From positions 34,105-98,104 of the forward strand of contig MFTH01000010.1 in assembly GCA_001786765.1 (NCBI GenBank): a DNA stretch of 64,000 bases, given 5' to 3'. The notes beneath the pieces were generated by a model. That model saw nothing but the letters and a program-made list of their open reading frames with translations, was not told where the DNA came from and made no database searches. Shown here in pieces: positions 333 to 63,880 of the stretch (the first letter of the stretch is position 1; each line of letters opens with the position of its first letter). A program made the position numbers and the translations under genes. The stretch comes from Candidatus Nomurabacteria bacterium RIFCSPHIGHO2_01_FULL_37_25. Its GTDB lineage: Bacteria > Patescibacteriota > Minisyncoccia > Phycocordibacterales > UBA9973.

Positions 333-2618
333 ATGAAATTACTTATCGTTGAATCACCATCAAAAGCAAAAACAATTGAAAAATATTTAGAAAATATTTC
401 TACCTCAAGAGCGGACAGATTTACTGTGCGCGCATCTGTGGGACATATTCGCGATCTGCCAAAATCAAATAAAACAGCGATAGATATAGAAGCCGGTTTC
501 GTTCCACATTACGAAATTTCTAAGGGTAAAGAAAAAATTATCCACGAATTGCAAGAGTTAGCCGAAAAATCAAAAGAGATAATACTCGCGACTGATCCTG
601 ACCGTGAAGGAGAAGCTATCGCTTGGCATATAGAGACACTTTTGAAAAAAGATAAAAAAATAAATGCGCCAATACAAAGAGTGGCTTTTTATGAAATAAC
701 TAAAGAAGCGATAGAAGAAGCGCTCAAACACCCGCGCAAGATTGATACTAATTTACGCAAAGCTCAAGAAGCGCGTCGAGTATTGGACCGGCTCGTGGGA
801 TATGATCTCTCTGGTCTCATTTGGAAAAAAGTGCGATACGGACTTTCGGCCGGTCGTGTTCAATCTCCCGCATTGCGTATAATAATGGAACGCGAGCGTG
901 AAATTCGCGCATTTATTCCGGAGAAATTTTGGAGAATTCTCGGACTTTTTGAAACCGAAAAAGGCGAAAAGATTACTTTAGAATGCAGTGAAGAACCTCG
1001 CGATCAAAAATTAGTTGAAAAAATATTAGAGATAGGAAAAAAAGAAAGTTGGATAATAAAAGATGTGAAAGAGTCAGAACAAAAACGCTCCCCTCGCGCG
1101 CCTTTTACTACTTCTACATTACAACAAACGGCAAGTTCACGCTTAGGCTACTCTCCTTCACGCACTATGCAAATAGCCCAAAAACTCTACGAAGCTGGAC
1201 ACATAACATATATGCGAACTGACAGCACGAATCTGTCTCTGGTCGCTCAAACACAAATAATTGCATTCATTAAAAATAAATATGGTGAAGAATACGCAGA
1301 GTCAAGAATTTACAAAACTAAATCTAAAAACGCCCAAGAAGCCCACGAAGCAATACGTCCTACACATATAGAAAACCTTACCGCTCTCAGTGAAGACCAA
1401 GACAGATTATACAGATTGATCTGGGAGCGCGCTGTGTCTTCGCAAATGACTGATGCAAAATTATTAAAAACCAAAATTTTGGCAAATGTTAAAGTCGCGG
1501 AAGCTTCCGCAATTCCAGATTTTTATGCTAATGGTTCTCGTTTGCTTTTCCCCGGCTGGCTTGCGGTAGACAAGGATGCGCGGGGCGATGATGTAGAATT
1601 GCCTAAATGCAGTGTTGGAGAAAAATTAAAATTGTTAAACCTTATAAATGAAGAAAAATTTACTGAACCATTAGGCAGATACAGTGAAGCAGGATTAATT
1701 AAAGAACTCGAGGCTAGAGGCATAGGCAGACCGTCCACTTATGCGTCTATTATGAAAACAATTGAAGAGCGAGGTTATGTTAATAAAGAAGGAAAAACAT
1801 TGTTTCCCACAGATGTCGGTGAAGTTGTGTCGGATTTCTTGGAGAAACACTTTATGAATTATATCTCTGACAGCTTTACGGCTGAAATGGAGGATAAACT
1901 CGACGAAATATCAGAAGGTCAGCGTGAATACGAAAAAACGCTCAAAGATTTTTACGGACCATTTCTTAAAGACATAAAATTAAAAGAAAAACTAGAGAAA
2001 GCTACAAATCTAGGTGAGGCGCCAGAGAATATAAAATGTCCAAAGTGTGGAGAGAAAATGATTATAAAACTTTCTCGCGGAGGTAAATTTTATTCTTGTT
2101 CAAAATATCCAGACTGTGATGGAGCTCTGATGCTAGATGGCACAGAATTACAAGGTTCCAAAGAAACTGGAGAATTATGTCCTAAATGCGGTGTTGATGA
2201 AAAAGATTTGCCCCGCGAAGCTTCAGCGAAATGGGGCGGAAAACTCGTTATCAAAGAACGACGCGACGGCACTGGCACTTTTATCTCTTGTTCTCGCTAT
2301 CCAAAATGTAAATTTATAAAAAGCGATGAAGCTGACGAAATGAAAAAAAGGACGGGTGTGATGTGTCCTATCTGCAAAACTGACCTGCCTGCCGGTAGGC
2401 AGGGAGATATGAGTGAACGCCGTGGGAGATTTGGTATTTTTTATTCTTGTTCAAATTATCCTGAATGTAAATTCGCAATCAAAGCCAAACCGACAGGCGC
2501 AATATGCAAAGAGTGCGGAAGCCTGATGATGCAAGGCACAAAAACTATTCCCGAACGTTGTTCAAACAAGGCTTGCAAAATGCACAACCCTCATAAAATA
2601 ACAAAAATTGAAAAATAG
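333..2618 (+). CDS. topA: DNA topoisomerase I with four C-terminal C4 zinc-ribbon repeats
   Basis: Toprim N-terminus (LLIVESPSKAKTIEKYL), active-site region, repeated CPxC...SCSxYPxC ribbons; ends with TAG. Confidence 0.95.
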   Translation: MKLLIVESPSKAKTIEKYLENISTSRADRFTVRASVGHIRDLPKSNKTAIDIEAGFVPHYEISKGKEKIIHELQELAEKSKEIILATDPDREGEAIAWHIETLLKKDKKINAPIQRVAFYEITKEAIEEALKHPRKIDTNLRKAQEARRVLDRLVGYDLSGLIWKKVRYGLSAGRVQSPALRIIMEREREIRAFIPEKFWRILGLFETEKGEKITLECSEEPRDQKLVEKILEIGKKESWIIKDVKESEQKRSPRAPFTTSTLQQTASSRLGYSPSRTMQIAQKLYEAGHITYMRTDSTNLSLVAQTQIIAFIKNKYGEEYAESRIYKTKSKNAQEAHEAIRPTHIENLTALSEDQDRLYRLIWERAVSSQMTDAKLLKTKILANVKVAEASAIPDFYANGSRLLFPGWLAVDKDARGDDVELPKCSVGEKLKLLNLINEEKFTEPLGRYSEAGLIKELEARGIGRPSTYASIMKTIEERGYVNKEGKTLFPTDVGEVVSDFLEKHFMNYISDSFTAEMEDKLDEISEGQREYEKTLKDFYGPFLKDIKLKEKLEKATNLGEAPENIKCPKCGEKMIIKLSRGGKFYSCSKYPDCDGALMLDGTELQGSKETGELCPKCGVDEKDLPREASAKWGGKLVIKERRDGTGTFISCSRYPKCKFIKSDEADEMKKRTGVMCPICKTDLPAGRQGDMSERRGRFGIFYSCSNYPECKFAIKAKPTGAICKECGSLMMQGTKTIPERCSNKACKMHNPHKITKIEK

Positions 2619-2650: not shown

Positions 2651-4126
2651 ATGAAAAATGCATATGACGTCGGAGAAATACTAAAATTGATGGGAAAAAT
2701 AAATAAGAAAGAAGAAGAACTTATAATAAAAGCTTATAGGTTTGCGCAGCGCGCGCATGAAGGTCAAAAAAGATTAAGCGGAGAACCTCATTTCACTCAC
2801 CCTTTTGAAACAGCCAAAACTTTAGCTTCACTGGGTATGGACGCGGAAACAATCTCGGCCGGATTAATGCATGATGTTCTGGAAGATACTAAGACAGGAG
2901 AAGAAGAAATGAGAAAAGAATTTGGAGAAAATATAGTTTTTCTAGTAAATGGCGTGACAAAACTTGGAACTTTGAAATATAGAGGACACGAAAGACATGT
3001 GGAAAGTTTGAGGAAATTCTTTGTGGCGATGGCAAATGATCTACGCACAGTTATCATAAAGTTTGCCGACAGACTGCATAATTTAAAAACTTTGGAATTT
3101 TTAAGAGAAGATAAAAGACGTAGGATTGCCATAGAATCAATCGAAGTGTATGCGCCACTGGCTAACCGTCTAGGTATGGGAAAATTTAAAGGCGAACTGG
3201 AAGACGCCGCTTTTCCGTTTGCTTTTCCAGAAGAATATAAACAAACCGAAGAAATAATAAAAGAAAAAAAAGATTTATATGAAAAAAACTTAGACGAAAT
3301 ACAGAAAAAGCTTCGAAAAGAATTGAATAAAAACAAAATCAAAGTGGTGGAAATAAATTATAGAATGAAACATAAGTACAGCTTATGGAAAAAACTCTTA
3401 AAGCGCGAAATGGATATAGAAAAAGTATATGACCTGATCGCTTTGCGGGTGGTAGTAGAAAGCATAGAAGAATGTTATAGAGTGTTAGGAATAATACATT
3501 CCCTTTGGAATCCATTACCCGGCAGGATAAAAGACTACATCGCGGTGCCAAAACACAATGGCTACCGCTCCATTCACACCACTATTTTCACCGGTTCGGG
3601 CGGAATCGCAGAAATTCAAATACGAACAAAAGAAATGCATGCCGAAGCGGCTTATGGTATCGCGGCTCATTTCGCCTACAAAGAACAAGGAAATAAAAAA
3701 GTGGAAAATGATAAATCAAAATTCAAATGGATAGAAGAATTAAAAAATTTGAATTACTCTCCGGATGAACCAAAAAAATTCATTGAGCATTTAAAGATGG
3801 ATTTTTTTAATGATCGCATTTTCGTTTTTACACCCAAGGGGGATGTAATAGATATGCCAGAGGATTCGTGTTCGCTTGATTTTGCTTATTTGATACATTC
3901 GGATATCGGAGAACATACCTTTGGCGCAAAAGTCAACGGCAAAATGGTTCAGCTTTTTACAAAATTAAAAAACGGAGACATTGTGGAAATAATAACTAAA
4001 AAAGATTCCAGACCGTCCAGAAAGTGGTTAGAATTCGTAAAAACTTCTGTCGCTAAAAAACATATAAGATCATATCTGGAAAAAAACACCTTACTTGCTA
4101 GGCTTAAATCTTTCGGTCGTTCTTAA
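2651..4126 (+). CDS. rel: Small bifunctional (p)ppGpp synthetase/hydrolase (RelA/SpoT homolog; HD + synthetase + TGS, no ACT domain)
   Basis: HD motif HDVLEDT, synthetase motifs (YRSIHTTI), TGS-like C-terminus. Confidence 0.88.
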   Translation: MKNAYDVGEILKLMGKINKKEEELIIKAYRFAQRAHEGQKRLSGEPHFTHPFETAKTLASLGMDAETISAGLMHDVLEDTKTGEEEMRKEFGENIVFLVNGVTKLGTLKYRGHERHVESLRKFFVAMANDLRTVIIKFADRLHNLKTLEFLREDKRRRIAIESIEVYAPLANRLGMGKFKGELEDAAFPFAFPEEYKQTEEIIKEKKDLYEKNLDEIQKKLRKELNKNKIKVVEINYRMKHKYSLWKKLLKREMDIEKVYDLIALRVVVESIEECYRVLGIIHSLWNPLPGRIKDYIAVPKHNGYRSIHTTIFTGSGGIAEIQIRTKEMHAEAAYGIAAHFAYKEQGNKKVENDKSKFKWIEELKNLNYSPDEPKKFIEHLKMDFFNDRIFVFTPKGDVIDMPEDSCSLDFAYLIHSDIGEHTFGAKVNGKMVQLFTKLKNGDIVEIITKKDSRPSRKWLEFVKTSVAKKHIRSYLEKNTLLARLKSFGRS

Positions 4127-7051: not shown

Positions 7052-7198
7052 TTTGCCGTCAAACCTGCCTGCCGGTAGGCAGGGAAAAACTTAAAATAAA
7101 GTAGCAAAAAAAAAACAGCAAATCCTGTAAAAAAGTTATCCCCACCAGTTGAATAATGATAAGTTGCATTATCTCGTATATGAGATATACTATTTGGT

Positions 7199-19970: not shown

Positions 19971-20025
19971 TACTACGAAACATAAATTGAGATAACTTCT
20001 TAAGATTTCCGCATATGCAGAAATC

Positions 20026-20817
20026 TCACGAAACAATCACCGTAAACTCCCCTTTTTGTTTAACAGGGTTTTGAATTAAGTAATCTAAAATTTCTTTCGG
20101 CGTACCGGTTTTCAATTCTTCATAAATTTTTGTCAGTTCACGGGCGATACAGACTTTTTTATTGGGGCAAAATTTAGTGAGTGATTCTAAAGTTTTTAAA
20201 ATTCGATGTGGAGATTCGTAAAATACCATTGTTCTTTTTGATTCGGCAATTTCCTTAAATAAAGTTTCTCTGCCTTTTTTATGCGGTAAAAATCCTAAAA
20301 AAGTAAATTCGTGTGTCGGCAATCCAGAAGCAGAAAGCGCAGTGATAACAGCACTTGGTCCTGGTATAGGAATCACATCTACGACTATGTTAACATTCTC
20401 TGCGATAGCAGAGTTTGTTAAAAAGTTAAATTTTTCTCTAAACCCTTTAGAAGAAGGGTGAAGCGATTCAGCTTTGTTGAATTTAGCTTTTATCTCTGAG
20501 ACAAGCATAGCGCCAGGGTCTGATATCGTGGGAGTGCCAGCGTCAGAAACCAATGCCAAATTTTTCCCCCCTTCCAATAACTCAAAAATCTTTGCTAATT
20601 TACTGTTTTGTCTAGAGTTTTTCCCGGCAACATCGTCAGACGGATAGCTCATCGTTGGCGTATTAATATTGTATTTTTCTAAAATTTTTTTCGTCTGTCG
20701 CGTATCCTCACACAATATCAGATCAACACTTTTTAGTGTTTCAATCGCTCGGAGTGTGATATCCTGCAAATTCCCTATCGGCGTGGCAATAACATAAAAT
20801 TTAGACATTTTGATCAA
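20026..20817 (-). CDS. rsmI: 16S rRNA 2'-O-methyltransferase RsmI (tetrapyrrole-methylase family)
   Basis: YVIATPIGNLQDITLRAIETLKSVDLILCEDTR N-terminus. Confidence 0.85.
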   Translation of the reverse strand: MIKMSKFYVIATPIGNLQDITLRAIETLKSVDLILCEDTRQTKKILEKYNINTPTMSYPSDDVAGKNSRQNSKLAKIFELLEGGKNLALVSDAGTPTISDPGAMLVSEIKAKFNKAESLHPSSKGFREKFNFLTNSAIAENVNIVVDVIPIPGPSAVITALSASGLPTHEFTFLGFLPHKKGRETLFKEIAESKRTMVFYESPHRILKTLESLTKFCPNKKVCIARELTKIYEELKTGTPKEILDYLIQNPVKQKGEFTVIVS

Positions 20818-21071
20818 TTATACACATCATGGTCTCCTATAGCCAACAAAACTATTTCTTTTTTAGATTCATATTCAAATACAATACGTATTTTATAATT
20901 TACAGAAAAACTCCATTTATCTTTCATCGGTCCATGAAGTTTGTGAATTTTTAATACTGTCTGATCAGTAGAATTTTTAAAAATATCAATCTTAGATAAT
21001 ACTTCATCAAAAAGACTTTGCTCTAATTTATTAATTTGCTTAATAAACGAAGGCTTGAAAGATACTTGCAT
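20814..21071 (-). CDS. RelE/ParE-family type II toxin
   Basis: 85 aa, KIHKLHGPMKDKWSFSVNYKIRIVFEY...IGDHDVY pattern. Confidence 0.7.
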   Translation of the reverse strand: MQVSFKPSFIKQINKLEQSLFDEVLSKIDIFKNSTDQTVLKIHKLHGPMKDKWSFSVNYKIRIVFEYESKKEIVLLAIGDHDVYN

Positions 21072-21078
21072 AACATTA

Positions 21079-21288
21079 TTATTTAAATTTTTTCACTAAA
21101 TCCTTTAAATCCCCACGAAGAGTTGACTCTCGTTCAGCGCGAAGAACAGCGGCGACTGCTTCTTCTTCTGTAAGACGCTCTAAAGCTTTGCGCATAACTG
21201 CGGCTCTATTATTCGCGACACCAGACTTTACTAAATAATCCAAAGATAATTCTAATTTTGAATTCAAAGGCACAGATATTGTTGACAT
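21079..21288 (-). CDS. Ribbon-helix-helix (CopG/ParD-like) antitoxin
   Basis: 69 aa, ISVPL beta-strand plus helices; directly upstream of the RelE-like gene. Confidence 0.6.
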   Translation of the reverse strand: MSTISVPLNSKLELSLDYLVKSGVANNRAAVMRKALERLTEEEAVAAVLRAERESTLRGDLKDLVKKFK

Positions 21289-21379: not shown

Positions 21380-21871
21380 TTATCTCCTATATTTTCTAGC
21401 GCGCCATTTATCAGCGATTTTTACACGAGTAAGTGATCGCTCGAGTTCCGCTTCAAAATGTTCAAAATCTACATGTTCTTTATTCTGCATAGCCACCTTC
21501 ATCTCTTCTGCTCGAGTTTTTGCTTTTTCTATTTTCTCGTCTGAAATTTCAAATACATGTTCTGCAAAATCAGCCAAAATAGCCACTTCTGTCACATAAT
21601 CTAAACTTTTCCCCGACGCTTCTGGTCGGGGTTCCGACCCTTCTAGGCATCGGGATTTTATTTCCACAAAACCACCAGAAACTGCCATTGGTATATTCTC
21701 GCCTTTTGAGATTCCCACCACATCTCCCGAAGCAAGACCCACAATAAGAGGTATGTGCCCCGGCAAAACAGAGATTTCACCCTCCGTAGTGGGTATAACA
21801 ACTTCATCCACCATCTCTTCTAACACAAGACGTTCTGGGGTAACTATTTTTAATTTTAATTGTTTTGCCAT
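21380..21871 (-). CDS. atpC: ATP synthase F1 epsilon subunit (probable start MAKQLKLKIV; ORF track extends to 21949); carries a 17-aa in-frame insertion encoded by a GC-rich double hairpin
   Basis: Epsilon beta-sandwich and C-terminal helices; inserted SRCLEGSEPRPEASGKS segment encoded by 21611-21655. Confidence 0.85.
   Translation of the reverse strand: MAKQLKLKIVTPERLVLEEMVDEVVIPTTEGEISVLPGHIPLIVGLASGDVVGISKGENIPMAVSGGFVEIKSRCLEGSEPRPEASGKSLDYVTEVAILADFAEHVFEISDEKIEKAKTRAEEMKVAMQNKEHVDFEHFEAELERSLTRVKIADKWRARKYRR
21611..21655. repeat. GC-rich double-hairpin palindromic element (family P2), in-frame inside atpC
   Basis: CCCCGACgcttctgGTCGGGG plus a second CCGAC..TCGGG hairpin; ~60% GC in an AT-rich gene; copies at 47574-47618 and 36083-36122. 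Confidence 0.7.
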
Positions 21872-35712: not shown

Positions 35713-35860
35713 TTTGAATTACGAAACTCGTCGAAGGCATGTCTTTTTTAGGGGGTTTCGAGGCTGTCGAGCCGAGAACTTCAGGATTTTTTAAGCTTAA
35801 AAAAATCCGTACCCTAGAAAAAGACATGCCTAGAAAGAGTTTTGTAATTCATGATATACA
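35713..35860. mobile_element. MITE-like element copy 1 (~148 bp, 17-bp TIRs TTTGAATTACGAAACT / AGTTT[TC]GTAATTC[AA])
   Basis: TIRs flank a core with GGCTGTCGAGCCGAG and the perfect palindrome GGATTTTTTAAGCTTAAAAAAATCC. Confidence 0.75.
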
Positions 35861-36082: not shown

Positions 36083-36122
36083 GCCGACGATTCTGTCGGC
36101 TCCCCGACCAAATGCGTCGGGG
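36083..36122. repeat. Intergenic copy of the GC-rich double-hairpin element (family P2)
   Basis: GCCGACgattctGTCGGC and CCCCGACcaaatgcGTCGGGG. Confidence 0.65.
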
Positions 36123-36147
36123 CTACACGCTCAAAACTTGTGAATTA

Positions 36148-36300
36148 CGAAACTCGTCGAAGGCATGTCTTTTTTAGGGGGTTTCGAGGCTGTCGAGCCG
36201 AGAACTTCAGGATTTTTCAACCTGCCTGCCGGCAGGCAGGGCTTCGAAAAATCCGTATCCTAGAAAAAGACATGCCTAGAAAGAGTTTCGTAATTCAAAG
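36148..36300. mobile_element. MITE-like element copy 2 with nested CCTGCCTGCCGGCAGGCAGGG palindrome replacing the central AAGCTT hairpin
   Basis: Same TIRs and core as copy 1; 36221-36241 carries the P1 palindrome. Confidence 0.75.
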
Positions 36301-36335
36301 TCAAAACATAAACAAATATAACATAAACAAAACAA

Positions 36336-46504: not shown

Positions 46505-46536
46505 GTAGACTCTGTATATGATAAAATTACTCATCT

Positions 46537-46570
46537 GTCTAAGATTTCCGCATATGCGGAAATCTTAGAC
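46537..46570. repeat. 34-bp perfect palindrome GTCTAAGATTTCCGCATATGCGGAAATCTTAGAC (family P3) between convergent genes
   Basis: Perfect dyad; related copies at 20003-20026 and 52081-52106 with half-site 51429-51447. Confidence 0.8.
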
Positions 46571-46572
46571 TC

Positions 46573-47181
46573 TTAGACATGGTATCCGGCTTTTGTAAGC
46601 AATTCTTTTAATAAGTGTATCGGCATACCAACGATACTTTCTTCGTTACCCTCAATTTTTTTAACATAGGGTCTTAAAATGGGATGCTGAACACCAAAAC
46701 CACCAGCTCGACCAAGCGGATCTCCAATTTTTATAAAATTTTCAATTACAGACTCTGAAAATGGATTCCAAAAAACTTGCGCCTTAGCAACACCCTCATA
46801 ATATACTCCTGTGGCAGTGTTAAAGATAACAATGGCTGTTACCCCTTCCGGAGCCACGCCTGCGCTATATTCTCTCAGAAATTTACGCGCTTCTTCTTCC
46901 GACTCCGGTTTTTCCCTCAGTTTTCCATTACACACTGCAACAGCATCAGAAGTAATAAGAAGGGCTGGCTCGTTAATTTTTGATATAAGAACATTCGCCT
47001 TAGCCCTCGCTAGCAAAAGCGGTCTTTTATATGGATCATTCTCTATGATTTCTTTTTCATCTAACTCAGGAATTAAAACTTCAAAAACATAACCCGCTTT
47101 TTCCATGAGATCCTTTCTATATTTAGAAGATGAGCCAAGAATTAATTTCATAAAATTATTTCGCAATTTGTGTAGCTTCAT
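46573..47181 (-). CDS. maf: Maf-like nucleoside triphosphate pyrophosphatase
   Basis: Maf-family homology (LILGSSSKYRKDLM...). Confidence 0.82.
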   Translation of the reverse strand: MKLHKLRNNFMKLILGSSSKYRKDLMEKAGYVFEVLIPELDEKEIIENDPYKRPLLLARAKANVLISKINEPALLITSDAVAVCNGKLREKPESEEEARKFLREYSAGVAPEGVTAIVIFNTATGVYYEGVAKAQVFWNPFSESVIENFIKIGDPLGRAGGFGVQHPILRPYVKKIEGNEESIVGMPIHLLKELLTKAGYHV

Positions 47182-49339
47182 TAAATTTTACAGAGAGAAG
47201 TTTAGAGGCTCCATTTGCGCCTATTGTGACTCCATAAAGCACTCCAGCGCGAGACATCGTCTCGCGGTTGTGAGTAACGACAATAAGCTGTGAATGTTTA
47301 GAGAGTTTCTCTAACATATCACCGTATTTGCGCGAATTTGCTTCGTCAAGCGCGGCATCGGTTTCATCCAATACCAAAAACGGTGGCGGATTTACTTGAG
47401 ACATAGCGAAGAGAAGGGCTATAGATGTGAGCGACCTCTCTCCGCCTGAGAGCGCATGAAGCTCTTTGACTTTTTTGTGAGGAAGCTTCACATTTATTTC
47501 TATTCCCTGTTCGAGCACGGATTCTTCTTCATCAATAAAGTCTTCCTCTAATTCTATATCTTCATAATTTTTTCCCGACGCTTGCGGTCGGGACCCCGAC
47601 TCCTCTGGGCGTCGGGACTTTTTATTTTCAACAACAATAGCAAGAGAACCTGTACCCCCATCGAACATTAGAGAAAAGAATTCTTGAAATTCCACATTTA
47701 TCTTTTTGATACCCTCTTTAAACTCTACATCAATTTTCTCTTTCAATTCTGCTATAAGCTTTTGTAATGATTCAACGCTTTTTGTTAAATCTTCTAATTC
47801 TTTTGCTAAAAATTGGTCCCGTTCTGAGACTTCTTTAAATTCTTTCAAAACCTCTGCTCCACTACCAACACCGGTATCTTCTAATTTTATTTTTAGGCGT
47901 TCAATTTTTTTCTTTAGTTCTTCTTGAGTAATTTCTTCTGCATTACCCTTTTTAATTTCATAATCTTTATAAGACAAAACAAGAGCTCCAATGAGCGCGA
48001 CGCCTTCTTTGATCTCATTATGAAAAGCTTCTGTCCGATTTTTTAAATTTCCCTCTTTGATAATTACCAACTCTAAAGCCGAAGACAGCTCCTGATGCTT
48101 AACTTTGAATTTAAATTTTTCTTTTTCAAGATCACGCAAAGATTCTATTTCTTTGTTTATCTCTTGCTTTAATGCTTCTATTTGCGCATTTAATTCTTTT
48201 TCTTTATTTTCTATATCTCGCGCCTCCTCTAGAAGACTAGACTGCGAAACTTTTAATTCTATTAGTTCTTTCTCGTTATTCTCTTTATTTTCTATTTGTT
48301 CTTTATTTATTTCTCCTAATTCTTTTCCGCATGTTGGACATCTGCCTAAGAGACCTCCGAGTTTTACTCTATTATTTTTCGCTTCTATCATTCCTTCTAT
48401 TCTGCCGAGCTTGCGTTCTATCTCATTCTTTAGCACTCTAATTCCACTCATTTTTTTCTCAACAATTTTTAATTCTTCAATTTTCTTATTCCCCTTAATA
48501 GAATTGCCGACTTCAATATCATGAATCTTGGGAGTTATCTGTTTTAGTTCATCGTTAATTTTATTTCTTTCGACTAACAAGCCAGATAATTCTAAATCTA
48601 AATAAATACTTTCTTTCTTGAAATATTCTCTATAGAAAGTCGAGAGCTCAATCTGCATTTCTTTCACTTTCTCAAGCTTCTCTACTTGTTTCTTCAAAAA
48701 ATTAAAATGCGGGGCGTTTTCTCTTCGTAACATTACTACTTCTTTCATATTATTAGATGTTCGTTCCAACTTGCGCTCGGATTCTTTTATTTTATATTGA
48801 TATATCTTAAGCCCGAGCGCATCTTCCACCATTTCTTTTCTATCTTTTGGACTCGCATTTAAAATCCTATCCGCTTCGCCTTGCGAAATAATATGATGCC
48901 CAGAGGAGCCGATGTTTACAGAAGCTAAAAGATTATGAACATCTTTTAACCTTACTTCTTCTCCATTTAGAATATATTTATTTAATCCGTCAGAATGCAC
49001 CTCGCGAGAAATAATGATGGTGTCATAATTTAGATTTATATTTTCCCCCGTATCATTTTCAAGTTTAAAAATTTTATCGGAATTATTGAAATATATCGCG
49101 ACATTTGCTCTGGAGCCTTTAGACAAGCTTTTTGACCCTTTGAAAATAAGATCAAGTCCCGACTTTCCACGCATTGACTTCATTGATTGTTCACCTAAGA
49201 CATAACGAAGAGCCTCCACTACATTAGATTTTCCAGAACCATTGGGACCGACGATGCAAACAATAGGACTCTCAAATTCCAAAACAGTTTTTTGAGCAAA
49301 AGATTTAAAACCATTTATTTCAAGAGTTTTGAGCCTCAT
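47156..49339 (-). CDS. smc: Short SMC-type ATPase (727 aa) with CxxC (CPTCG) at the coiled-coil apex in place of a canonical hinge; contains an in-frame GC-rich element insertion
   Basis: SMC N-head (FKSF, GPNGSGKSN), C-head LSGGERSLTSIALLFA...LDETDAALD...LYGVT; CPTCG near residue 335 of 727; inserted SRRPEESGSRPQASGK encoded at 47574-47618. Confidence 0.75.
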   Translation of the reverse strand: MRLKTLEINGFKSFAQKTVLEFESPIVCIVGPNGSGKSNVVEALRYVLGEQSMKSMRGKSGLDLIFKGSKSLSKGSRANVAIYFNNSDKIFKLENDTGENINLNYDTIIISREVHSDGLNKYILNGEEVRLKDVHNLLASVNIGSSGHHIISQGEADRILNASPKDRKEMVEDALGLKIYQYKIKESERKLERTSNNMKEVVMLRRENAPHFNFLKKQVEKLEKVKEMQIELSTFYREYFKKESIYLDLELSGLLVERNKINDELKQITPKIHDIEVGNSIKGNKKIEELKIVEKKMSGIRVLKNEIERKLGRIEGMIEAKNNRVKLGGLLGRCPTCGKELGEINKEQIENKENNEKELIELKVSQSSLLEEARDIENKEKELNAQIEALKQEINKEIESLRDLEKEKFKFKVKHQELSSALELVIIKEGNLKNRTEAFHNEIKEGVALIGALVLSYKDYEIKKGNAEEITQEELKKKIERLKIKLEDTGVGSGAEVLKEFKEVSERDQFLAKELEDLTKSVESLQKLIAELKEKIDVEFKEGIKKINVEFQEFFSLMFDGGTGSLAIVVENKKSRRPEESGSRPQASGKNYEDIELEEDFIDEEESVLEQGIEINVKLPHKKVKELHALSGGERSLTSIALLFAMSQVNPPPFLVLDETDAALDEANSRKYGDMLEKLSKHSQLIVVTHNRETMSRAGVLYGVTIGANGASKLLSVKFNEATQIAK
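47574..47618. repeat. GC-rich double-hairpin palindromic element (family P2), in-frame inside smc
   Basis: CCCGACgcttgcgGTCGGG and CCCCGACtcctctgggcGTCGGG. Confidence 0.7.
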
Positions 49340-51459: not shown

Positions 51460-52080
51460 TTAAAATAAATGAAAATTTTTCTTTAACTTTTCTTCTCTTA
51501 AGAAGTTTTCTACAGTCAAAACCTCCACATATTTCCCCACTCCAAAGAAATCAGCAATAAAGATTATTTCGTCTTCACAAGGATAAGGATAAATCCAAGC
51601 GGATTTTTGAAATTGGAAAAAATTTAATTCTTTCAAATGATACCGTAATGCTTCTCTACCTTTTGTAAATCTCATCGGAATATCAAACATAACTAATCTC
51701 CATTTGCTATCCCATCTTTTTGGCTTGTTAATCTTCATCAGCTCAATATCGAAAGCTCTGAGTCTCGTATTTCCTTTTTTAGTAATTTTTACTATAGTTT
51801 TTCCGTTCTTGTCAGCGACATATTCTATGAGTTTTTGACGTCTAATATTATCAATAGCGCTTTGTATTTGTTTTTTAGAATACTTTTTAGATCCTTCAAA
51901 CATCTTAAAACATTGCACTGCATTACCCATAACTCCTGCGCCCAACACCAGCATAGGCATTAAAGATACAGCCAACACACAAAGAGCAACTGTGGAAATT
52001 TTTGCTTCAGTTGTATCAGACTCTAAAAAATCTTTTAATCTCTTTGAATACCCTGCTTTATTATTTTTTCCCATATACAT
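51460..52080 (-). CDS. PaaX-family-like regulator (N-terminal TM segment, wHTH, PaaX_C-like W..W.L..FDIP...LR..L...F.....S.W..P) bracketed by inverted half-palindromes
   Basis: RWDSKWRLVMFDIPMRFTKGREALRYHLKELNFFQFQKSAWIYP matches the PaaX C-terminal pattern; IRs at 51429-51447 and 52081-52099. Confidence 0.45.
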   Translation of the reverse strand: MYMGKNNKAGYSKRLKDFLESDTTEAKISTVALCVLAVSLMPMLVLGAGVMGNAVQCFKMFEGSKKYSKKQIQSAIDNIRRQKLIEYVADKNGKTIVKITKKGNTRLRAFDIELMKINKPKRWDSKWRLVMFDIPMRFTKGREALRYHLKELNFFQFQKSAWIYPYPCEDEIIFIADFFGVGKYVEVLTVENFLREEKLKKNFHLF

Positions 52081-52107
52081 AAGATTCTAGCATATGCGGA
52101 AATCTTA

Positions 52108-54047: not shown

Positions 54048-54190
54048 GTTTGAATTACGAAACTCTTACTTGGCATATCTTTTTCTAGGGTACAGATTTT
54101 TTGAAGCTTAAAAAATCTTGAAGTTTGCTCGCCGTCGCTCGCAAAACCCCCTAAAAAAGACATGCCTGCGACAAGTTTCGTAATTCAAAG
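54048..54190. mobile_element. MITE-like element copy 3 (opposite orientation, ~85% identity to copy 1), followed by a degenerate partial copy at ~54205-54275
   Basis: Same 17-bp TIRs TTTGAATTACGAAACT...AGTTTCGTAATTCAAAG and AAGCTT-centred internal hairpin. Confidence 0.75.
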
Positions 54191-54337
54191 TTAATTAGTA
54201 TAAATTCCAAAAAAACTCGTCGCAGGTGTAGTTTTTGGTAGACATTGCGCAGGCTGACGAGCCGAGCATAGCAAATTTTCAGCAGAAAATTATGCGTGTC
54301 TAACAAAAATTATACCGAGAAAGAGTTTTTTTGGAAT

Positions 54338-55709: not shown

Positions 55710-55747
55710 ACTTGTATATTATAACAACAAATAAGCGGCAAAAATAC

Positions 55748-55952
55748 TTGACTTTTTCATTTTATTGTGCTATACTATAAGGGTAATAAGGTCTTTGAAA
55801 ATATAATATGTTTCGAGTTATTCTTGAGTGGTTCGCCCATCAAGTAGCTAAAGAAATTTAGCTCTTTGCTCGGCGAACGACTCGAAAAATAAATCCATTC
55901 CGACGAAAGTCGGAATACAACATGCGTCTATGAGGCGCAAAGGGAGAAGGAA
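55748..55952 (+). promoter_or_regulatory. Promoter (TTGACT-17-TATACT) plus ~170-nt structured leader, copy 1
   Basis: Near-identical promoter and colinear leader at 57351-57556, with compensatory stem changes. Confidence 0.65.
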
Positions 55953-56672
55953 ATGGAAACCAAGAAAAGACGGCGGAATCCCTGGGGCCCAGTTTTAAAA
56001 AATCCAAAGGCAACACAGGACACTGCAGTTGGGACTGCAGTTCCACCGCCACAGAAGAAACAAAAGATGGTGGAATGGCTGGTGGGGGGGATATTTATTT
56101 TTCTGGTCCTGGTATGCGGATTCTACTTTGAGTTCGCGTACCGAGTCCTGGCTGTAGTTGGGCTCGGGATCACCATGGCTGTACTCATGGTACAGTCTAT
56201 CTTCTCCGAGAAAGAGGTGAGTTTTTGGACCACCTTGGGAAAGGTTGTTGGAAACAACAACTGGATTTACTGGTGGATCTTCTTGTCTGGGATGGCTTGT
56301 CTCCTGATAGGATTTTTCTCAAACAACATTCCGAGAAAAATCTATACGGTGCTTGTCATAATAGACAATCCTGTAAGTCCCGGTAATTGGAGTAAGGCCG
56401 CAGAGAGTCTTACTCTAGAGGACCCTTTTAAAAACAACGACGACAACCCCTTCCTCGCAACAAACGAAGGAACTCAAGGCAGTTCCCTCTTCGCAGGAGA
56501 GGAGGCGAAATGGGGTTTCGCCGGTCTTCAATTCCTCTTGCTGGCTCTGCCAGCAAGGTTCGTCTCTTACTGGGACGAAATGAAGAGGAAGGCGAAAAAA
56601 AAGGAGAAGGGCCAGAGCTGGATTAGCTGGTTCTTCAGCCACGTCCTCTTTGAATTAATCTGGCCTGGGTAG
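55953..56672 (+). CDS. Hypothetical polytopic membrane protein (GC-rich island)
   Basis: GC-rich ORF with SD AAGGGAGAAGGAA before the ATG; several TM helices. Confidence 0.5.
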   Translation: METKKRRRNPWGPVLKNPKATQDTAVGTAVPPPQKKQKMVEWLVGGIFIFLVLVCGFYFEFAYRVLAVVGLGITMAVLMVQSIFSEKEVSFWTTLGKVVGNNNWIYWWIFLSGMACLLIGFFSNNIPRKIYTVLVIIDNPVSPGNWSKAAESLTLEDPFKNNDDNPFLATNEGTQGSSLFAGEEAKWGFAGLQFLLLALPARFVSYWDEMKRKAKKKEKGQSWISWFFSHVLFELIWPG

Positions 56673-56693
56673 GTAATAGAGGAGACCAAAAAT

Positions 56694-57206
56694 ATGCCGA
56701 GAATCTTCATAATGTTGGTGGTGTTGGTGCTTTCAATTTACTCTTTTGGATGCGGGGGGGAGAATAAGTATGAAAAGACCATAAGTTCTGCTGAAAAGCA
56801 GGACAGGGATAGCCCCCCTGCAAATTATGAAGAGGCGCAAAAACGCTTCAACCAAGTAGCCAAGTATCTTGACTACTTGGAGAAGCATCCGGAGAGTTCT
56901 TCCCCAGAACTCACAGCAAGGGCAAAGGCCCTGCTGGATAGCCGTAAAGCGGCGGCTATGGCTAAAGGATGGAATGTCGCCGCCGGAGCGCTAGAGAAGG
57001 TAGTGCAAAAGGCGAAGGAAGTGGCGAAGGAAGTGCTGGGCACCATTGGCGTCACAGACCTACCCAGCGCTGCCAAAAAGGTCGAGGAGGCAAGAGATTG
57101 GGTCCTTAGGGACCCGGAAAGAGAAGAACAGTTCTCCTGCAAGGATATCGACGGTAACCCCGTCGACGTCACGAAGGAAGGTTTTGCCCATCTCTGCGTA
57201 AGGTAG
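56694..57206 (+). CDS. Hypothetical lipoprotein (GC-rich island)
   Basis: Signal peptide with lipobox-like ...YSFGC, helical body. Confidence 0.5.
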   Translation: MPRIFIMLVVLVLSIYSFGCGGENKYEKTISSAEKQDRDSPPANYEEAQKRFNQVAKYLDYLEKHPESSSPELTARAKALLDSRKAAAMAKGWNVAAGALEKVVQKAKEVAKEVLGTIGVTDLPSAAKKVEEARDWVLRDPEREEQFSCKDIDGNPVDVTKEGFAHLCVR

Positions 57207-57264
57207 AAAGGAGGAAAAAACTTACGCAGGTGGGGAGGGTGCGCGACCCTATAACGCGCAAATT

Positions 57265-57298
57265 GGGCGGACTCAGAAATGAGTACCGCCCTTTTTTT
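57265..57298 (+). terminator. Rho-independent terminator
   Basis: GGGCGGactcagaaatgagtaCCGCCC plus TTTTTTT. Confidence 0.75.
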
Positions 57299-57350
57299 AT
57301 TTTAATATTATAAAATAAGGATAAAATAGCTTTTTTGTCAAGATTAAACC

Positions 57351-57556
57351 TTGACTTTTTCATTTTATTGTGCTATACTATAAAGGTAATCAGGTCTTTG
57401 AAAATATAATATGTTCTGAGTCATTCTTGAGCAGTTTGCCTATCAAGTAGCTAAAGAGATTTGGCTCTTTGCTTGGCAAACGAGCTCAAGGAATGGAAAC
57501 TTCTCTGGTGAAAGCCAGAGTACAAATGCGTCATCTTGACGCGAAAGGAGTCCACA
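57351..57556 (+). promoter_or_regulatory. Promoter (TTGACT-17-TATACT) plus ~170-nt structured leader, copy 2
   Basis: See copy 1; the ORF-track ORF 57469-57702 lies inside the leader and is probably not coding. Confidence 0.65.
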
Positions 57557-58654
57557 ATGTGGACATTGATTATTTTATTAGCGGCCAGTTACTGGGCATC
57601 CACTGGGATACCCGGGTGGCCGTTGTCAACATGGCAGACGTCCCTGGTGGCGGGAGCCCTATATGGGCTCTATCGACTGGCGTGCTGGATGCAGTGGATT
57701 GATGGTGGCCATCATACCACCACACCAGTTAGCACCGCCGCCGGACACAGTGGAGGAAGTGGTGGTATGTGGGGAGGGATACCAAAGCTAGGACTTTGGT
57801 ACGTTCTCACAACCGCCCTAATGATGATAGGTACATACATAGTCAACGTGCAAAACGTTGACATGTTTATGTATTTCATAACATTAGGGGGACGGTCGTG
57901 GATTTATCCTTTATCCACAACGGATGCTATCCTCTGGACGTCTACCCTGGCTCTCATGTCAGCGGTCGCCTGGCTAGCAGTGGAGGGGAGATGGCGACCG
58001 GCTGGATGGATATTCGGGATAACCTTTATAACTCTCCTTGTTTTTAGGGAGTTCGGTCCGTTCTTCGAGGCGATCCGGCCGATCCCGAGCTCCGGTCCTG
58101 TCACGCCGGGCATCGGCGAAAGTCAAGAGAGGGCGGACCTGAACGCCGCCCTAGTCAAGCGAGGAGCGCTCCCCGTAGCGGGGGAGGTGGTGGCCAAGTT
58201 TGGGTTCGGGGAGGTAGACCCAAAGGAAGGTTTCCTCCTCGGCCTGGTTTCCCGAGGGTGGGTGTGGTGGATGGGCGCACCCACCTACGACCCCAAGAAG
58301 GGGGCAGTCCTGGGGAGATTGTATCAGTTTTGGGAATGGGCGGCTGGAGAAAGCCCACTCCCATCTCGCGCGCCGGCGGTAGTGTTTTCCCCCACCCCTG
58401 CGCCGGCGGGACCGCTGAGAAGCTGTTCCGTCCCCTGCGAGATGTGGGTGGATTGGGAGGAGGACATCAAAACGGGTGGGCGAGACGTTTTGGTCCTCTT
58501 CCACGGAAAGGAGGAATGGTTCCGCCTTTCCGGAGGGAATGAAAAGGATATCCCCAGGGAGGTTTTCTCCCCCGGCAAGGCAAAGTTTGCTTTGCCGGAC
58601 GACGGCGACGACGCGTCGCCCATAATGGTAAAAATTTTCGCGGCGAAAAAATAA
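57557..58654 (+). CDS. Hypothetical polytopic membrane protein with Pro/Gly-rich C-terminal region (GC-rich island)
   Basis: ATG at 57557 preceded by AAAGGAG; ~8 TM helices; ORF-track start 57536 is a TTG upstream. Confidence 0.5.
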   Translation: MWTLIILLAASYWASTGIPGWPLSTWQTSLVAGALYGLYRLACWMQWIDGGHHTTTPVSTAAGHSGGSGGMWGGIPKLGLWYVLTTALMMIGTYIVNVQNVDMFMYFITLGGRSWIYPLSTTDAILWTSTLALMSAVAWLAVEGRWRPAGWIFGITFITLLVFREFGPFFEAIRPIPSSGPVTPGIGESQERADLNAALVKRGALPVAGEVVAKFGFGEVDPKEGFLLGLVSRGWVWWMGAPTYDPKKGAVLGRLYQFWEWAAGESPLPSRAPAVVFSPTPAPAGPLRSCSVPCEMWVDWEEDIKTGGRDVLVLFHGKEEWFRLSGGNEKDIPREVFSPGKAKFALPDDGDDASPIMVKIFAAKK

Positions 58655-59107: not shown

Positions 59108-59118
59108 TGATTCTAAAA

Positions 59119-59511: not shown

Positions 59512-59622
59512 CCCGTTTAGAAATTATGATATCCGTACATTACCTTTAGGTATATAAAGAAACACAATTCTTACTTTTATAATTTCTCCCGTTTTCTAAA
59601 TTTCTAACGGGATTCAAAACGA
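59512..59622 (-). promoter_or_regulatory. 5' leader inverted repeat (CCCGTTAGAAATT...AATTTCTAAACGGG-ATG) of pilin paralog 2
   Basis: 13/14-bp arms enclosing ~80 nt; 3' arm abuts the ATG. Confidence 0.45.
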
Positions 59623-59726
59623 CTTTGATAATAATTAATAATACTTAATAAAGAACTACCATGCTATTGTACCACAAACAGTATCAAAAAAGAAAGCAAG
59701 CCCCGTCTGAATAAAGACGCTGAAAG

Positions 59727-63150: not shown

Positions 63151-63212
63151 CTATACATTATAGTATTAAAAAACTTAATTTGCATTGAAGTTATTAACAA
63201 AAAACCTTGATG

Positions 63213-63880
63213 TCAAAGAGACACTTTGACATAATACAGTGAATGAGTAATAGAGATTATAAAAAATTTAATATTGGATCAATAGCTCACATTTACAACA
63301 GAGGAAATAACAAGGAAAAAATATTTTTTGATGATCAAGATTACAGAGCTTTTCTTTTTAGACTTGCTTTAGTTTTAGGATTTGACCAAAAAGAATTACA
63401 AAACGAAAACTTGTTAAGTATGCCTTATTCCAGAATACGAATTGAATTTAAAGGAAAAAATAAATTCAAAATACATGCTTTTTGTCTTATGCCAAATCAT
63501 TTTCATTTATTAATTGAGCAAGTTGGAGATACCTCAATTTCAAAATTAATTTCAAAAGTCTGTTCAAGTTATTCTAAATATATAAATAAAAAATATAAAC
63601 GTGTTGGACATACTTTTCAAGATTGTTTTAAAGCTGTAATTATTGAGAATAATCCTCAACTAATGTGGGTTTCGTCTTATATCCACATGAATGCAGTAAA
63701 AGATGGTTTGGTAAAACACCCTTCTGAATATTTATGGAGTAGTTACAACGATTACACTTCCCTCAGAAATTTACCGTTAGTTACAAAAGAATTATTAATA
63801 GAAACTTTTGGCGATGAGAAAAATTTTATAGAACAAACATTGAATTTTAGTGTCAAAGTGTCTCTTTGACACCCTTACCT
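63213..63880 (+). mobile_element. IS200/IS605-type element carrying a RAYT-like Y1 transposase, flanked by complementary hairpins
   Basis: Left hairpin TGTCAAAGagacacTTTGACA (63215-63235); right GTGTCAAAGtgtctcTTTGACAC (63855-63877), the reverse complement of the left. Confidence 0.7.
63243..63869 (+). CDS. tnpA: IS200-like / REP-associated tyrosine transposase (HuH Y1)
   Basis: HuH motif LMPNHFHLL, catalytic Tyr region (WSSYNDY), ~200-aa RAYT-length form. Confidence 0.78.
   Translation: MSNRDYKKFNIGSIAHIYNRGNNKEKIFFDDQDYRAFLFRLALVLGFDQKELQNENLLSMPYSRIRIEFKGKNKFKIHAFCLMPNHFHLLIEQVGDTSISKLISKVCSSYSKYINKKYKRVGHTFQDCFKAVIIENNPQLMWVSSYIHMNAVKDGLVKHPSEYLWSSYNDYTSLRNLPLVTKELLIETFGDEKNFIEQTLNFSVKVSL

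What the first reader, a model, noticed from the sequence alone, without database searches (positions are those of the whole stretch)
21611..21655. GC-rich double-hairpin mini-element inserted in-frame into atpC (and smc), RPE-like
A ~45-nt GC-rich element made of two short hairpins (CCCGAC-N7-GTCGGG twice) lies inside the atpC coding sequence. On the coding strand it adds SRCLEGSEPRPEASGKS between the beta-sandwich and the C-terminal helices of epsilon. A near-identical element inside smc (47574-47618) encodes SRRPEESGSRPQASGK, and a third copy is intergenic (36083-36122). Reading frame is preserved in both proteins. This looks like a mobile palindromic element that colonises ORFs the way Rickettsia palindromic elements do, which I have not seen described for this kind of AT-rich, small-genome lineage.
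Basis: seen in the sequence. Interest (0 to 1): 0.82.

Follow-up and report, generated by a model that had tools for sequence, protein, structure and literature searches.

The report
In-frame double-hairpin repeat in CPR genes
A 45-base GC-rich double-hairpin repeat has been inserted, in frame, into surface loops of essential genes (ATP synthase epsilon, SMC) of this tiny Nomurabacteria genome; the same repeat occurs all over the Patescibacteria, so it is a real Rickettsia-palindromic-element-like selfish repeat in a group where I found no published description of one.

Summary
Window 21611-21655 is exactly a 45-nt insertion in atpC. Most of the relatives' loci that could be read have a 6-7-aa AT-rich linker there (K|KNEEG). 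The insert sits between AAA|AAA with no target-site duplication. A second copy, 78% identical, lies in frame in smc (47573-47617). A third, 40-nt copy is intergenic (36083-36122).

The family is widespread in Patescibacteria. Of 120 genome hits to the double-hairpin pattern, 66 are named CPR lineages. About a third of copies lie deep inside housekeeping ORFs (atpG, holB-like, hisS, pth, rplC).

Across 22 copies, covariation supports two separate hairpins: 98% of cells paired, 7 pairs with compensatory changes, 0 of 500 shuffles as good. A single long hairpin is not supported. ORF-resident copies have lengths that keep the frame. The long-loop hairpin comes first in the coding direction, and an A-R motif abuts its 5' side.

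Two strains 98.4% identical over 4.9 kb differ in length only by one 24-nt hairpin.

The mobilising enzyme is unknown. A conserved RAYT (Y1 transposase) gene lies in the window, but it is flanked by a different hairpin (GTCAAAG-N5-CTTTGAC).

Verdict: a new member of a known kind (intragenic REP/RPE-like elements), of moderate interest.

The parts
21611..21655 (-). 45-nt double-hairpin element inserted in frame in atpC. On the coding strand it reads TCCCGATGCCTAGAAGGGTCGGAACCCCGACCAGAAGCGTCGGGG and encodes SRCLEGSEPRPEASG. The long-loop hairpin has partly decayed.
   Evidence: It is exactly the block absent from the no-insert orthologues L126 and L127 and from the 64 no-insert atpC loci. nhmmer E=2.4e-8. 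Fold -25 kcal/mol, z -4.65. AlphaFold pLDDT is below 50 at residues 79-89.
21380..21871 (-). Host gene atpC (F1 epsilon, 163 aa).
   Evidence: Pfam PF02823 (E=7e-20) and a sub-threshold match to PF00401 (E=9.3e-4, 19.8 bits, curated cut-off 24.6). 100% identical to P0001 of Candidatus Nomurabacteria RIFCSPHIGHO2_01_FULL_37.
47573..47617 (-). 45-nt double-hairpin element in frame in the smc-like gene. On the coding strand it reads TCCCGACGCCCAGAGGAGTCGGGGTCCCGACCGCAAGCGTCGGGA and encodes SRRPEESGSRPQASG.
   Evidence: nhmmer E=5.4e-12. It lies in a hypervariable K-rich/acidic loop between FFSLMFGGG and GIEINVSLP; only P0136, P0154 and P0200 of 120 relatives share it.
47156..49339 (-). Host gene: SMC-like ATPase (727 aa).
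   Evidence: Pfam SMC_N, E=7.7e-59.
36083..36122 (.). Intergenic 40-nt copy of a shorter-loop subfamily (GCCGAC-GATTCT-GTCGGC, TC, CCCCGAC-CAAATGC-GTCGGGG). It lies 29 nt from tRNA-Ile and next to a MITE-like repeat.
   Evidence: nhmmer E=2.2e-3. Fold z -4.9. A similar variant occurs in L065.
63243..63869 (+). RAYT-like Y1 (HUH) transposase gene. It is context only: the class of enzyme that could move such hairpins. No link to the CCGAC element was shown.
   Evidence: Pfam PF01797, E=1.4e-13. Weak match to E. coli RayT. 6803 homologues, of which the top 120 are at least 70% identical; JGI names some 'REP element-mobilizing transposase RayT'. Conserved synteny in relatives.
63212..63230 (.). 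Hairpin GTCAAAG-AGACA-CTTTGAC upstream of the RAYT gene. This is the RAYT's own flanking hairpin and belongs to a different family from the CCGAC element.
   Evidence: The same hairpin flanks the RAYT gene on both sides in L209-L211.
63852..63870 (.). Inverted partner hairpin GTCAAAG-TGTCT-CTTTGAC, overlapping the 3' end of the RAYT ORF.

Best explanation
The feature is a copy of a short, non-coding, selfish palindromic repeat of the REP/REPIN/RPE kind. The family is spread across Patescibacteria.

Anatomy. The unit is about 45 nt and consists of two adjacent GC-rich hairpins built on the core CCGAC...GTCGG. Hairpin A has a 7-bp stem, a bulged G, 3 further base pairs and a 3-nt loop (consensus GAA). 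Hairpin B has a 7-bp stem and a 6-7-nt loop.

Shown:
- It entered atpC at the DNA level, as a precise 45-nt insertion between two Lys codons (AAA|AAA), with no target-site duplication.
- Copies with the same consensus sit in unrelated genes (smc here; atpG, a holB-like gene, hisS, pth and rplC in other genomes) and between genes.
- The two-hairpin structure is kept by compensatory changes across copies.
- Near-identical strains differ by the loss or gain of one hairpin.

Inferred:
- Copies spread by a structure-dependent copy-and-paste step on single-stranded DNA, most likely carried out by an HUH/Y1 (RAYT or IS200/IS605-like) enzyme acting in trans. This would insert the element in one orientation, 3' of an A-A/G motif.
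- Genic copies are translated. They persist only where selection allows: lengths that are multiples of three, GC-rich sequence mostly free of stop codons, and hydrophilic Ser/Arg/Pro/Gly/Glu peptides in Lys-rich surface loops.
- After insertion the copies decay, by AT-biased mutation (as in the window's atpC copy) and by slippage between the repeated CCCGAC arms.
For: Insertion:
- The atpC DNA alignment shows exactly 45 extra nt. The count of A residues at the site is the same in filled and empty alleles, so there is no target-site duplication.
- 64 of the 84 readable atpC loci from relatives have a 6-7-aa linker and no insert.

A repeated family:
- 5 hairpins in the window against 0.05 expected.
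- The 45-nt consensus is shared between classes: 22 copies have a mean column identity of 85%.

Genic copies:
- 23 of 74 doublets lie deep in ORFs of at least 150 aa.
- In relatives, copies lie in atpG and a holB-like gene, and in hisS, pth and rplC.

Structure:
- For the two-hairpin fold, 98.1% of cells are paired, 7 pairs show changes on both sides (37 cells), the covariation score is 0.316 against 0.120 for shuffles, and 0 of 500 shuffles reach it.
- The alternative long-hairpin fold has no compensatory change, and its outermost pair is unpaired in 12 of 22 copies.

Frame filter: 19 of 21 ORF copies have a core length of 2 mod 3, against 23 of 51 other copies (Fisher p=4.5e-4).

Orientation and target:
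- The long-loop hairpin comes first in the coding direction in 17 of 21.
- An A-R dinucleotide abuts the 5' side of the long-loop hairpin in 55 of 73 copies, against a 17% background.

Recent change: L125 and L123 are 98.4% identical over 4861 nt, and their only indel is the 24-nt hairpin in atpC.

Tolerated position: the insert is a low-confidence loop in the AlphaFold model (pLDDT below 50 at residues 79-89).

HUH enzymes exist in this lineage: a RAYT gene lies in the window, is flanked by its own hairpins, and is conserved in relatives.

GC hairpins do insert in this genome: a 20-nt CCTGCC hairpin of another family is nested in one MITE copy and absent from its closely similar sister copy (83 nt at 98% identity and 57 nt at 93%).
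Against: - No enzyme is linked to the CCGAC family. The window's RAYT and its relatives are flanked by GTCAAAG-N5-CTTTGAC hairpins, not CCGAC ones. No Y1 gene lies near CCGAC doublets in about 70 CPR loci.
- No new insertion event was caught. The only strain-level polymorphism seen is a one-hairpin indel.
- The distribution of the atpC insert on a crude NJ tree is patchy. It could mean repeated gain, precise loss or recombination; the tree cannot tell these apart.
- The frame-length statistic is partly circular, because 'ORF copy' was defined by an uninterrupted frame.
- Translation of the insert is inferred, not observed.
- Only 3 copies are visible here, because the source genome is not available whole.
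Confidence: 0.72

Rival explanations
1. The copies are real insertions, but they spread without a dedicated transposase. Possible routes are gene conversion or recombination between related genomes, template switching during repair at A-runs, or slippage that creates and duplicates hairpins.
For: - No cognate enzyme was found.
- The one-hairpin indel lies between direct CCCGAC repeats, which is typical of slippage.
- Most insert-bearing atpC alleles share a Tyr/Phe just after the insert, which no-insert alleles lack. This fits a single origin passed on by descent or recombination.
- The mechanisms of RPEs and of CGTC-type REPs are also unknown (PMC3733652).
Against: - The same 45-nt consensus occurs in unrelated genes and in different CPR classes. 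That needs a copying step from a template, not local slippage.
- There is a directional A-R motif at one end.
- Structure-preserving covariation fits selection for a hairpin-recognising machinery.
Confidence: 0.2
2. The hairpins are kept because they serve the host. As an mRNA structure they might pause translation between folding units or stabilise the transcript. As a peptide they might act as a flexible loop in epsilon and SMC.
For: - Strong predicted structure (z -4.3 to -5.0).
- Covariation maintains the hairpins.
- The orientation bias follows the coding direction.
- The insert is retained across diverged atpC alleles (69-78% protein identity).
Against: - The same element sits in unrelated genes and in intergenic DNA.
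- Most relatives lack it.
- The window's atpC copy is decaying by transitions that break pairs.
- One hairpin can be lost with no other change.
- At least five unrelated palindromes occupy the same atpC site in other lineages, which points to a tolerant site rather than a needed function.
Confidence: 0.06
3. The segment is an intervening sequence that is removed, as a mini-intron, a translational bypass element or an intein-like segment, so the protein is unaffected.
For: GC-rich hairpin inserts that ribosomes bypass are, from my own knowledge, reported in yeast mitochondria. The hairpins here are stable.
Against: - Every genic copy examined keeps the frame and lacks stop codons, which would be unnecessary if the segment were removed.
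- No Rfam family, intron families included, matches.
- 15 aa is far too short for an intein.
Confidence: 0.02
4. It is an ancestral linker or an assembly artefact, not an insertion.
For: None beyond the starting possibility.
Against: - Empty sites exist in 64 of 84 readable loci from relatives.
- Filled alleles were recovered independently from NCBI, ENA, JGI and Logan assemblies.
Confidence: 0.01

Closest known systems
Rickettsia palindromic elements (RPE)
   Same: Repeated palindromic DNA in a small, AT-rich genome. It is inserted in frame into unrelated housekeeping genes, adds a peptide that the fold tolerates, and has no identified transposase (PMC10969869; PMC3733652).
   Different: The classic RPEs are reported as about 150 bp and as encoding conserved peptides (PMC10969869). 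This element is 45 nt (15 aa), consists of two tandem GC-rich hairpins, and occurs in a different phylum. Sequence relatedness to RPEs was not tested.
Intragenic REP dimers of the GTAG- and CGTC-tagged REP superfamilies (Di Nocera et al. 2013, PMC3733652)
   Same: Hairpins of 20-40 nt, mostly arranged as dimers. Some lie inside ORFs, where dimers encode 20-30 aa. Genes for DNA metabolism and RNA-binding proteins are often hit. CGTC-type REPs lack a dedicated transposase.
   Different: There is no unpaired GTAG or CGTC tag. The stem and loop geometry differs: 7-bp GC stems against 8-9 bp with A/T as the first pairs and a CCA tail. The fraction of copies inside ORFs appears much higher here.
REPIN-RAYT systems (Bertels and Rainey 2011; from my own knowledge)
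   Same: Doublets of short palindromes. A single-copy, vertically inherited RAYT gene is present in the same genome and is flanked by hairpins in inverted orientation.
   Different: The RAYT here is flanked by GTCAAAG-N5-CTTTGAC hairpins, not by the CCGAC doublet. Covariation supports two separate hairpins, not one long REPIN hairpin.
IS200/IS605-derived hairpin mini-elements (PATEs; from my own knowledge)
   Same: A hairpin at each end, no target-site duplication, and oriented insertion next to a short motif.
   Different: No parent IS carrying the same ends was found. At 45 nt the element is much shorter.
GC clusters, double-hairpin elements and repetitive hairpin-forming elements of AT-rich mitochondrial genomes (yeast, Allomyces, sponges; PMC4478555, PMC2800124)
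   Same: GC-rich hairpin repeats described as mobile DNA in mitochondrial genomes (PMC4478555, PMC2800124), mechanism unknown. That such elements also enter coding regions is from my own knowledge, not from the parts of those papers read here.
   Different: These are organellar genomes with unrelated sequences. This is an analogy only.

Membership tests
REP / REPIN-RAYT | A short (20-40 nt) imperfect palindrome that forms a stable hairpin | tested here: met
   Two hairpins of about 20-24 nt. Fold z-scores -4.3 to -5.0. Covariation supports them.
REP / REPIN-RAYT | Many dispersed copies per genome | tested here: inconclusive
   3 copies in 64 kb and about 9 further sites in 595 kb of relatives. 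However, there are 0 in 60 kb of three other relatives, and the whole source genome was not available.
REP / REPIN-RAYT | A conserved unpaired GTAG (or CGTC) tag at one end | tested here: not met
   The flank consensus is T-Y-A-R followed by the stem. The CGTC that does occur is part of the stem and loop, not an unpaired tag.
REP / REPIN-RAYT | A cognate RAYT gene flanked by the same repeat | tested here: not met
   The RAYT genes of the window and of L209-L211 are flanked by GTCAAAG-N5-CTTTGAC. The L003 RAYT is flanked by a GTAG-type REP. No RAYT flanked by CCGAC doublets was found.
REP / REPIN-RAYT | The doublet folds into one long hairpin (a REPIN) | tested here: not met
   The long-hairpin fold has 0 compensatory changes, and pair 1-45 is unpaired in 12 of 22 copies.
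Rickettsia palindromic elements | A palindromic repeat inserted in frame in unrelated ORFs | tested here: met
   Found in atpC, smc, atpG, a holB-like gene, hisS, pth and rplC.
Rickettsia palindromic elements | Sequence homology to the RPE-1 to RPE-10 consensus sequences, and a length of about 100-150 bp | not tested
The 45-nt length does not fit the classic RPE-1 class (PMC10969869).
MITE (cut-and-paste type) | Terminal inverted repeats plus a target-site duplication | tested here: not met
   There is no target-site duplication at the atpC site: filled and empty alleles have the same number of A residues.
IS200/IS605-derived mini-element | Hairpin ends, no target-site duplication, and oriented insertion 3' of a short specific motif | tested here: inconclusive
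   No target-site duplication. An A-R motif abuts the long-loop hairpin in 55 of 73 copies against a 17% background. The motif is only 2 nt long, and no parent IS was found.
CGTC-tagged REP families 1-4 (PMC3733652) | Stem of 8-9 bp with A/T as the first two pairs, loop of 4-5 nt, CCA tail | tested here: not met
   The consensus CCCCGACGCCCGAAGGGGTCGGGG/TCCCGACCGnAAGCGTCGGGA has GC stems of 7 bp and loops of 3 and 6-7 nt.

The most novel reading that the evidence does not exclude
The CCGAC double hairpin may be one of several still-active hairpin repeat families, moved by domesticated RAYT-type or as yet unknown HUH enzymes. On this reading, the families together are a major, phylum-wide source of the lineage-specific loop insertions seen in Patescibacteria housekeeping proteins. 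They would insert preferentially at Lys-codon A-runs, so these reduced genomes would gain new peptide loops through selfish DNA rather than point mutation.
Probability: 0.3. Interest if true: 0.75.

Novelty: new member of a known kind. Interest (0 to 1): 0.55.

Why it matters
- It explains a class of odd, low-complexity Ser/Arg/Pro/Gly inserts in CPR proteins. Such inserts can disturb alignments, phylogenomic markers and domain calls. Here, for example, the Pfam epsilon domain match is cut at position 70 of 80.
- It shows that even roughly 1-Mb episymbiont-type genomes carry proliferating palindromic repeats together with RAYT genes.
- It provides natural filled and empty alleles of essential genes (F1 epsilon and gamma, SMC, the holB-like gene) for studying how selfish DNA creates protein loops.
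- It offers a testable link to single-strand HUH transposition.

Tried and rejected
- Rfam at gathering thresholds found only three tRNAs and no family at the elements.
- A scan of viral contigs with the double-hairpin pattern gave 20 hits. All are in contigs of 53-74% GC, with unrelated sequences or tandem arrays. None belongs to this family.
- I looked for a gene bracketed by two doublets, as a candidate autonomous element, in L017, L039 and L065. The intervening genes are EF-Tu, S10 and L3; EF-Ts and S2; and signal peptidase, Pth and HisRS. These are ordinary housekeeping genes.
- phmmer searches with E. coli RayT and with the window's RAYT against all ORFs of all loci held found only the window's gene and one in L003. 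Neither is next to a CCGAC doublet.
- The single long-hairpin (REPIN-like) fold was tested and rejected.
- An NJ tree of atpC without the linker was too weakly resolved to decide between a single gain and repeated gains.
- A precise empty site for the atpG and smc copies could not be defined, because those loops are hypervariable.
- Four literature searches for a CPR/Patescibacteria description returned nothing relevant.

Full report
**1. What is in the sequence**

The window is AT-rich (32-40% GC over most of its length). Its atpC product is 100% identical to a protein of Candidatus Nomurabacteria RIFCSPHIGHO2_01_FULL_37, so the source is a Patescibacteria (CPR) genome.

The three reported sites exist. 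The motif CCGAC-N5-12-GTCGG occurs five times against 0.05 expected from shuffles, and all five lie in the three elements. An nhmmer profile of the family finds no further copy in the window.

- The atpC copy (21611-21655) and the smc copy (47573-47617) are each 45 nt. Both lie on the coding (minus) strand, in frame and without stop codons.
- They encode SRCLEGSEPRPEASG and SRRPEESGSRPQASG. I counted 10 differences in 45 nt by hand, so they are 78% identical; one search gives 72% over 78 nt including flanks.
- The third copy (36083-36122, 40 nt) is intergenic, 29 nt from tRNA-Ile.
- All three fold far better than shuffled sequence (z -4.3 to -5.0).

**2. It is an insertion**

Homologues of epsilon range from 147-148 aa to more than 170 aa, and all the length variation sits at one site.

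At the DNA level, the no-insert relatives L126 and L127 read GTA AAA | AAA GAy. The window and L121, L125, L128 and L129 carry exactly 45 extra bases at the bar. The number of A residues at the site is the same in filled and empty alleles, so there is no target-site duplication.

Of the 84 atpC loci from relatives that could be read, 64 have the 6-7-aa AT-rich linker K(K/Q)NE(E/K)G and no insert.

The two relatives most similar to the window outside the insert (P0015 and P0022, 82-83% protein identity) lack it. Insert-bearing alleles are 69-78% identical. A crude NJ tree does not make the carriers monophyletic. Most carriers share a Tyr/Phe just after the insert, which is weak evidence for a single origin. 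I leave open whether the insert was gained once or several times.

In smc the element lies in a hypervariable K-rich/acidic loop between FFSLMFGGG and GIEINVSLP. Only three of 120 relatives carry the same peptide.

**3. Where it sits in epsilon**

The AlphaFold model (mean pLDDT 73.8) places the insert in an unstructured loop between strands 58-75 and 92-105, with pLDDT below 50 at residues 79-89. The Pfam beta-sandwich match stops at profile position 70 of 80. The insert is therefore in the turn of the last beta-hairpin of the N-terminal domain.

**4. It belongs to a family spread across Patescibacteria**

Of these, 66 are named CPR lineages: Saccharibacteria 21, Nomurabacteria 7, and also Paceibacterota, Kaiser-, Kerfeld-, Berkel-, Taylor-, Adler-, Yanofsky-, Wolfe-, Doudna- and other groups. 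Most of the remainder are high-GC actinobacterial matches that do not resemble the family. I infer, from general knowledge and not from a measurement here, that CPR make up only a small share of the bases scanned.

A 45-nt subfamily has the consensus CCCCGACGCCCGAAGGGGTCGGGG TCCCGACCGnAAGCGTCGGGA. Its 22 copies, from different classes and different genes, have a mean column identity of 85%.

**5. Structure**

Counted on those 22 copies:

- Two-hairpin fold: 98.1% of cells paired, 7 pairs with changes on both sides (37 cells), covariation score 0.316 against 0.120 for shuffles, and 0 of 500 shuffles as high. The slid controls are far lower.
- Alternative fold (outer stem plus central hairpin): no compensatory change, and its outermost pair is unpaired in 12 of 22 copies.

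The covarying positions were not part of the search pattern. The invariant CCGAC/GTCGG cores were, so they carry no weight. The result says that copies which propagate or persist keep two separate hairpins.

**6. Genic copies**

- In about 1 Mb of low-GC loci, 23 of 74 doublets lie deep in ORFs of at least 150 aa, against 67% of random positions.
- In the 595 kb that was not selected by the pattern, the sites outside atpC fall in atpG (three relatives), a holB-like delta-prime gene (two sites) and smc. Three sites are intergenic.
- In Saccharibacteria and other groups, copies sit in hisS, pth and the C-terminus of rplC.
- Core length is 2 mod 3 in 19 of 21 ORF copies and in 23 of 51 others (p=4.5e-4). 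This fits a frame filter, but it is partly circular, because an ORF copy was defined by an uninterrupted frame.
- Different reading frames are used: S-R-R... in atpC and smc, P-T-P... in atpG.
- The orientation is biased: the long-loop hairpin comes first in the coding direction in 17 of 21.
- An A-R dinucleotide abuts the 5' side of the long-loop hairpin in 55 of 73 copies, against a 17% background. At the other end the figure is 32 of 73. At the atpC and smc sites this motif is the end of a Lys codon (AAA, AAG).

**7. Dynamics**

- L125 and L123 are 98.4% identical over 4861 nt. Their only indel is 24 nt, one hairpin of the atpC element, lying between the repeated CCCGAC arms.
- The window's atpC copy carries three transitions relative to the consensus, and these weaken the long-loop hairpin. 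That is what AT-biased decay of a resident copy would look like.
- The same atpC site holds at least five other unrelated GC palindromes in other lineages (L130, L151, L196, L156 and a 75-nt one in L133).
- Another palindrome, encoding NLVVGVPSGTPTT, occurs in atpG of relatives, and closely similar NLVVG(V/L)PSG peptides occur in atpC of others.

So these loops are tolerant landing sites for several repeat families.

**8. Mechanism**

The shown steps are given in sections 2 and 4 to 7. The mobilising step is inferred.

Hairpin dependence, the absence of a target-site duplication and an oriented end motif fit single-strand HUH/Y1 transposition, as in REP-RAYT systems and IS200/IS605.

The window does encode a RAYT-like protein (63243-63869; PF01797, E=1.4e-13). 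It has 6803 homologues, and the top 120 are at least 70% identical. In three relatives it lies between the same methyltransferase gene and gyrA.

In all four genomes, however, this gene is flanked by ATGTCAAAG-N5-CTTTGACAT hairpins, not by CCGAC doublets. A second RAYT, in L003, is flanked by a GTAG-type REP. No Y1 gene was found next to a CCGAC doublet. The enzyme therefore remains unknown, and spread without a transposase is a live rival.

**9. Comparison with what is known**

- In-frame palindromic repeats are known as Rickettsia RPEs (PMC10969869).
- Intragenic REP dimers encoding 20-30 aa are known in Opitutus, Rickettsia and others (PMC3733652).
- GC-rich hairpin repeats described as mobile DNA in mitochondrial genomes are an analogy (PMC4478555, PMC2800124).

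The CCGAC doublet fails the defining tags and geometry of the GTAG and CGTC REP superfamilies. It fails the cognate-RAYT test and the target-site-duplication test for MITEs. I therefore file it as a new family of a known kind, not as a member of any named family.

I found no description for CPR in four full-text searches. That is not proof that none exists.

**10. Verdict**

Novelty: new member of a known kind. Interest is moderate (0.55). The element itself is ordinary in kind. Its phylum-wide spread, its high genic fraction in essential genes and the co-resident RAYT systems are worth a focused study.

Noticed in passing
window 63212-63870; L209-L211 around position 10000; L143, L153, L158, L166, L173, L186, L207: A conserved single-copy RAYT gene, lying between a methyltransferase gene and gyrA in relatives, is flanked on both sides by ATGTCAAAG-N5-CTTTGACAT hairpins. 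The same hairpin lies inside a conserved coding context (the C-terminal region of a holB-like gene, read as MSK..FDI) about 3 kb from atpC in several relatives. This looks like a second hairpin family associated with a RAYT that also enters ORFs.
   Followed up: partly
window 35715-35858, 36141-36304, 54051-54194: A MITE-like palindromic repeat of about 145-165 nt with terminal inverted repeats (TGAATTACGAAACTC...GAGTTTCGTAATTCA) is present in three copies. Copy 2 carries a nested 20-nt hairpin, CCTGCCTGCCGGCAGGCAGG (36220-36242), that is absent from copy 1, which is otherwise very similar (83 nt at 98% identity and 57 nt at 93%).
   Followed up: partly
window 2383-2405 and 7063-7085: Another GC hairpin family, ACCTGCCTGCCGGTAGGCAGGGA. 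One copy is in frame inside a zinc ribbon of topA (CPICKTD-LPAGRQG-DMSERRGRFG) and one is intergenic. A related hairpin fills the atpC site in L130 (LPAQAG).
   Followed up: partly
L130, L133, L151, L156, L196 (atpC linker); L153, L160, L198, L166 (atpG linker): The same loops of epsilon and gamma hold several unrelated GC-rich palindromes in different lineages. Examples are a 17-bp-stem hairpin encoding NLVVGVPSGTPTT in atpG (L153, L160, L198), with closely similar NLVVG(V/L)PSG peptides in atpC of other relatives, and a 75-nt long hairpin in L133.
   Followed up: partly
L003 2814-3573: The RAYT gene of a 57%-GC Nomurabacteria MAG is flanked by GTAG-type REPs (ATGTAGGACGTACGACGTCCTACAT). It also carries a copy of that REP in frame inside its own ORF (3008-3040).
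   Followed up: no
window 55953-58654: A GC-rich island (45-48% GC, against about 35% elsewhere) holds three ORFs with no Pfam hit and an internal 134-nt repeat (55747-55880 and 57350-57483, 90% identical). It may be foreign DNA.
   Followed up: no
window 19982-20026, 46521-46565, 52061-52105: A shared 45-nt repeat containing the palindrome AGATTTCCGCATATGCGGAAATCT lies at three gene ends. It looks like a terminator or another repeat family.
   Followed up: no
window 20814-21288: Two small ORFs lie between atpC and the TP_methylase gene, which are adjacent in relatives. One has a weak, sub-threshold HigB/RelE-like toxin match (E=1.3e-4); the other is a putative partner with no Pfam hit. This may be an inserted toxin-antitoxin module.
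   Followed up: partly
window 58784-61170: An array of paralogous genes for T4SS-pilin-like proteins (PF18895). It accounts for direct repeats D1-D3 and is conserved upstream of the SBP-methyltransferase-RAYT block in relatives.
   Followed up: no
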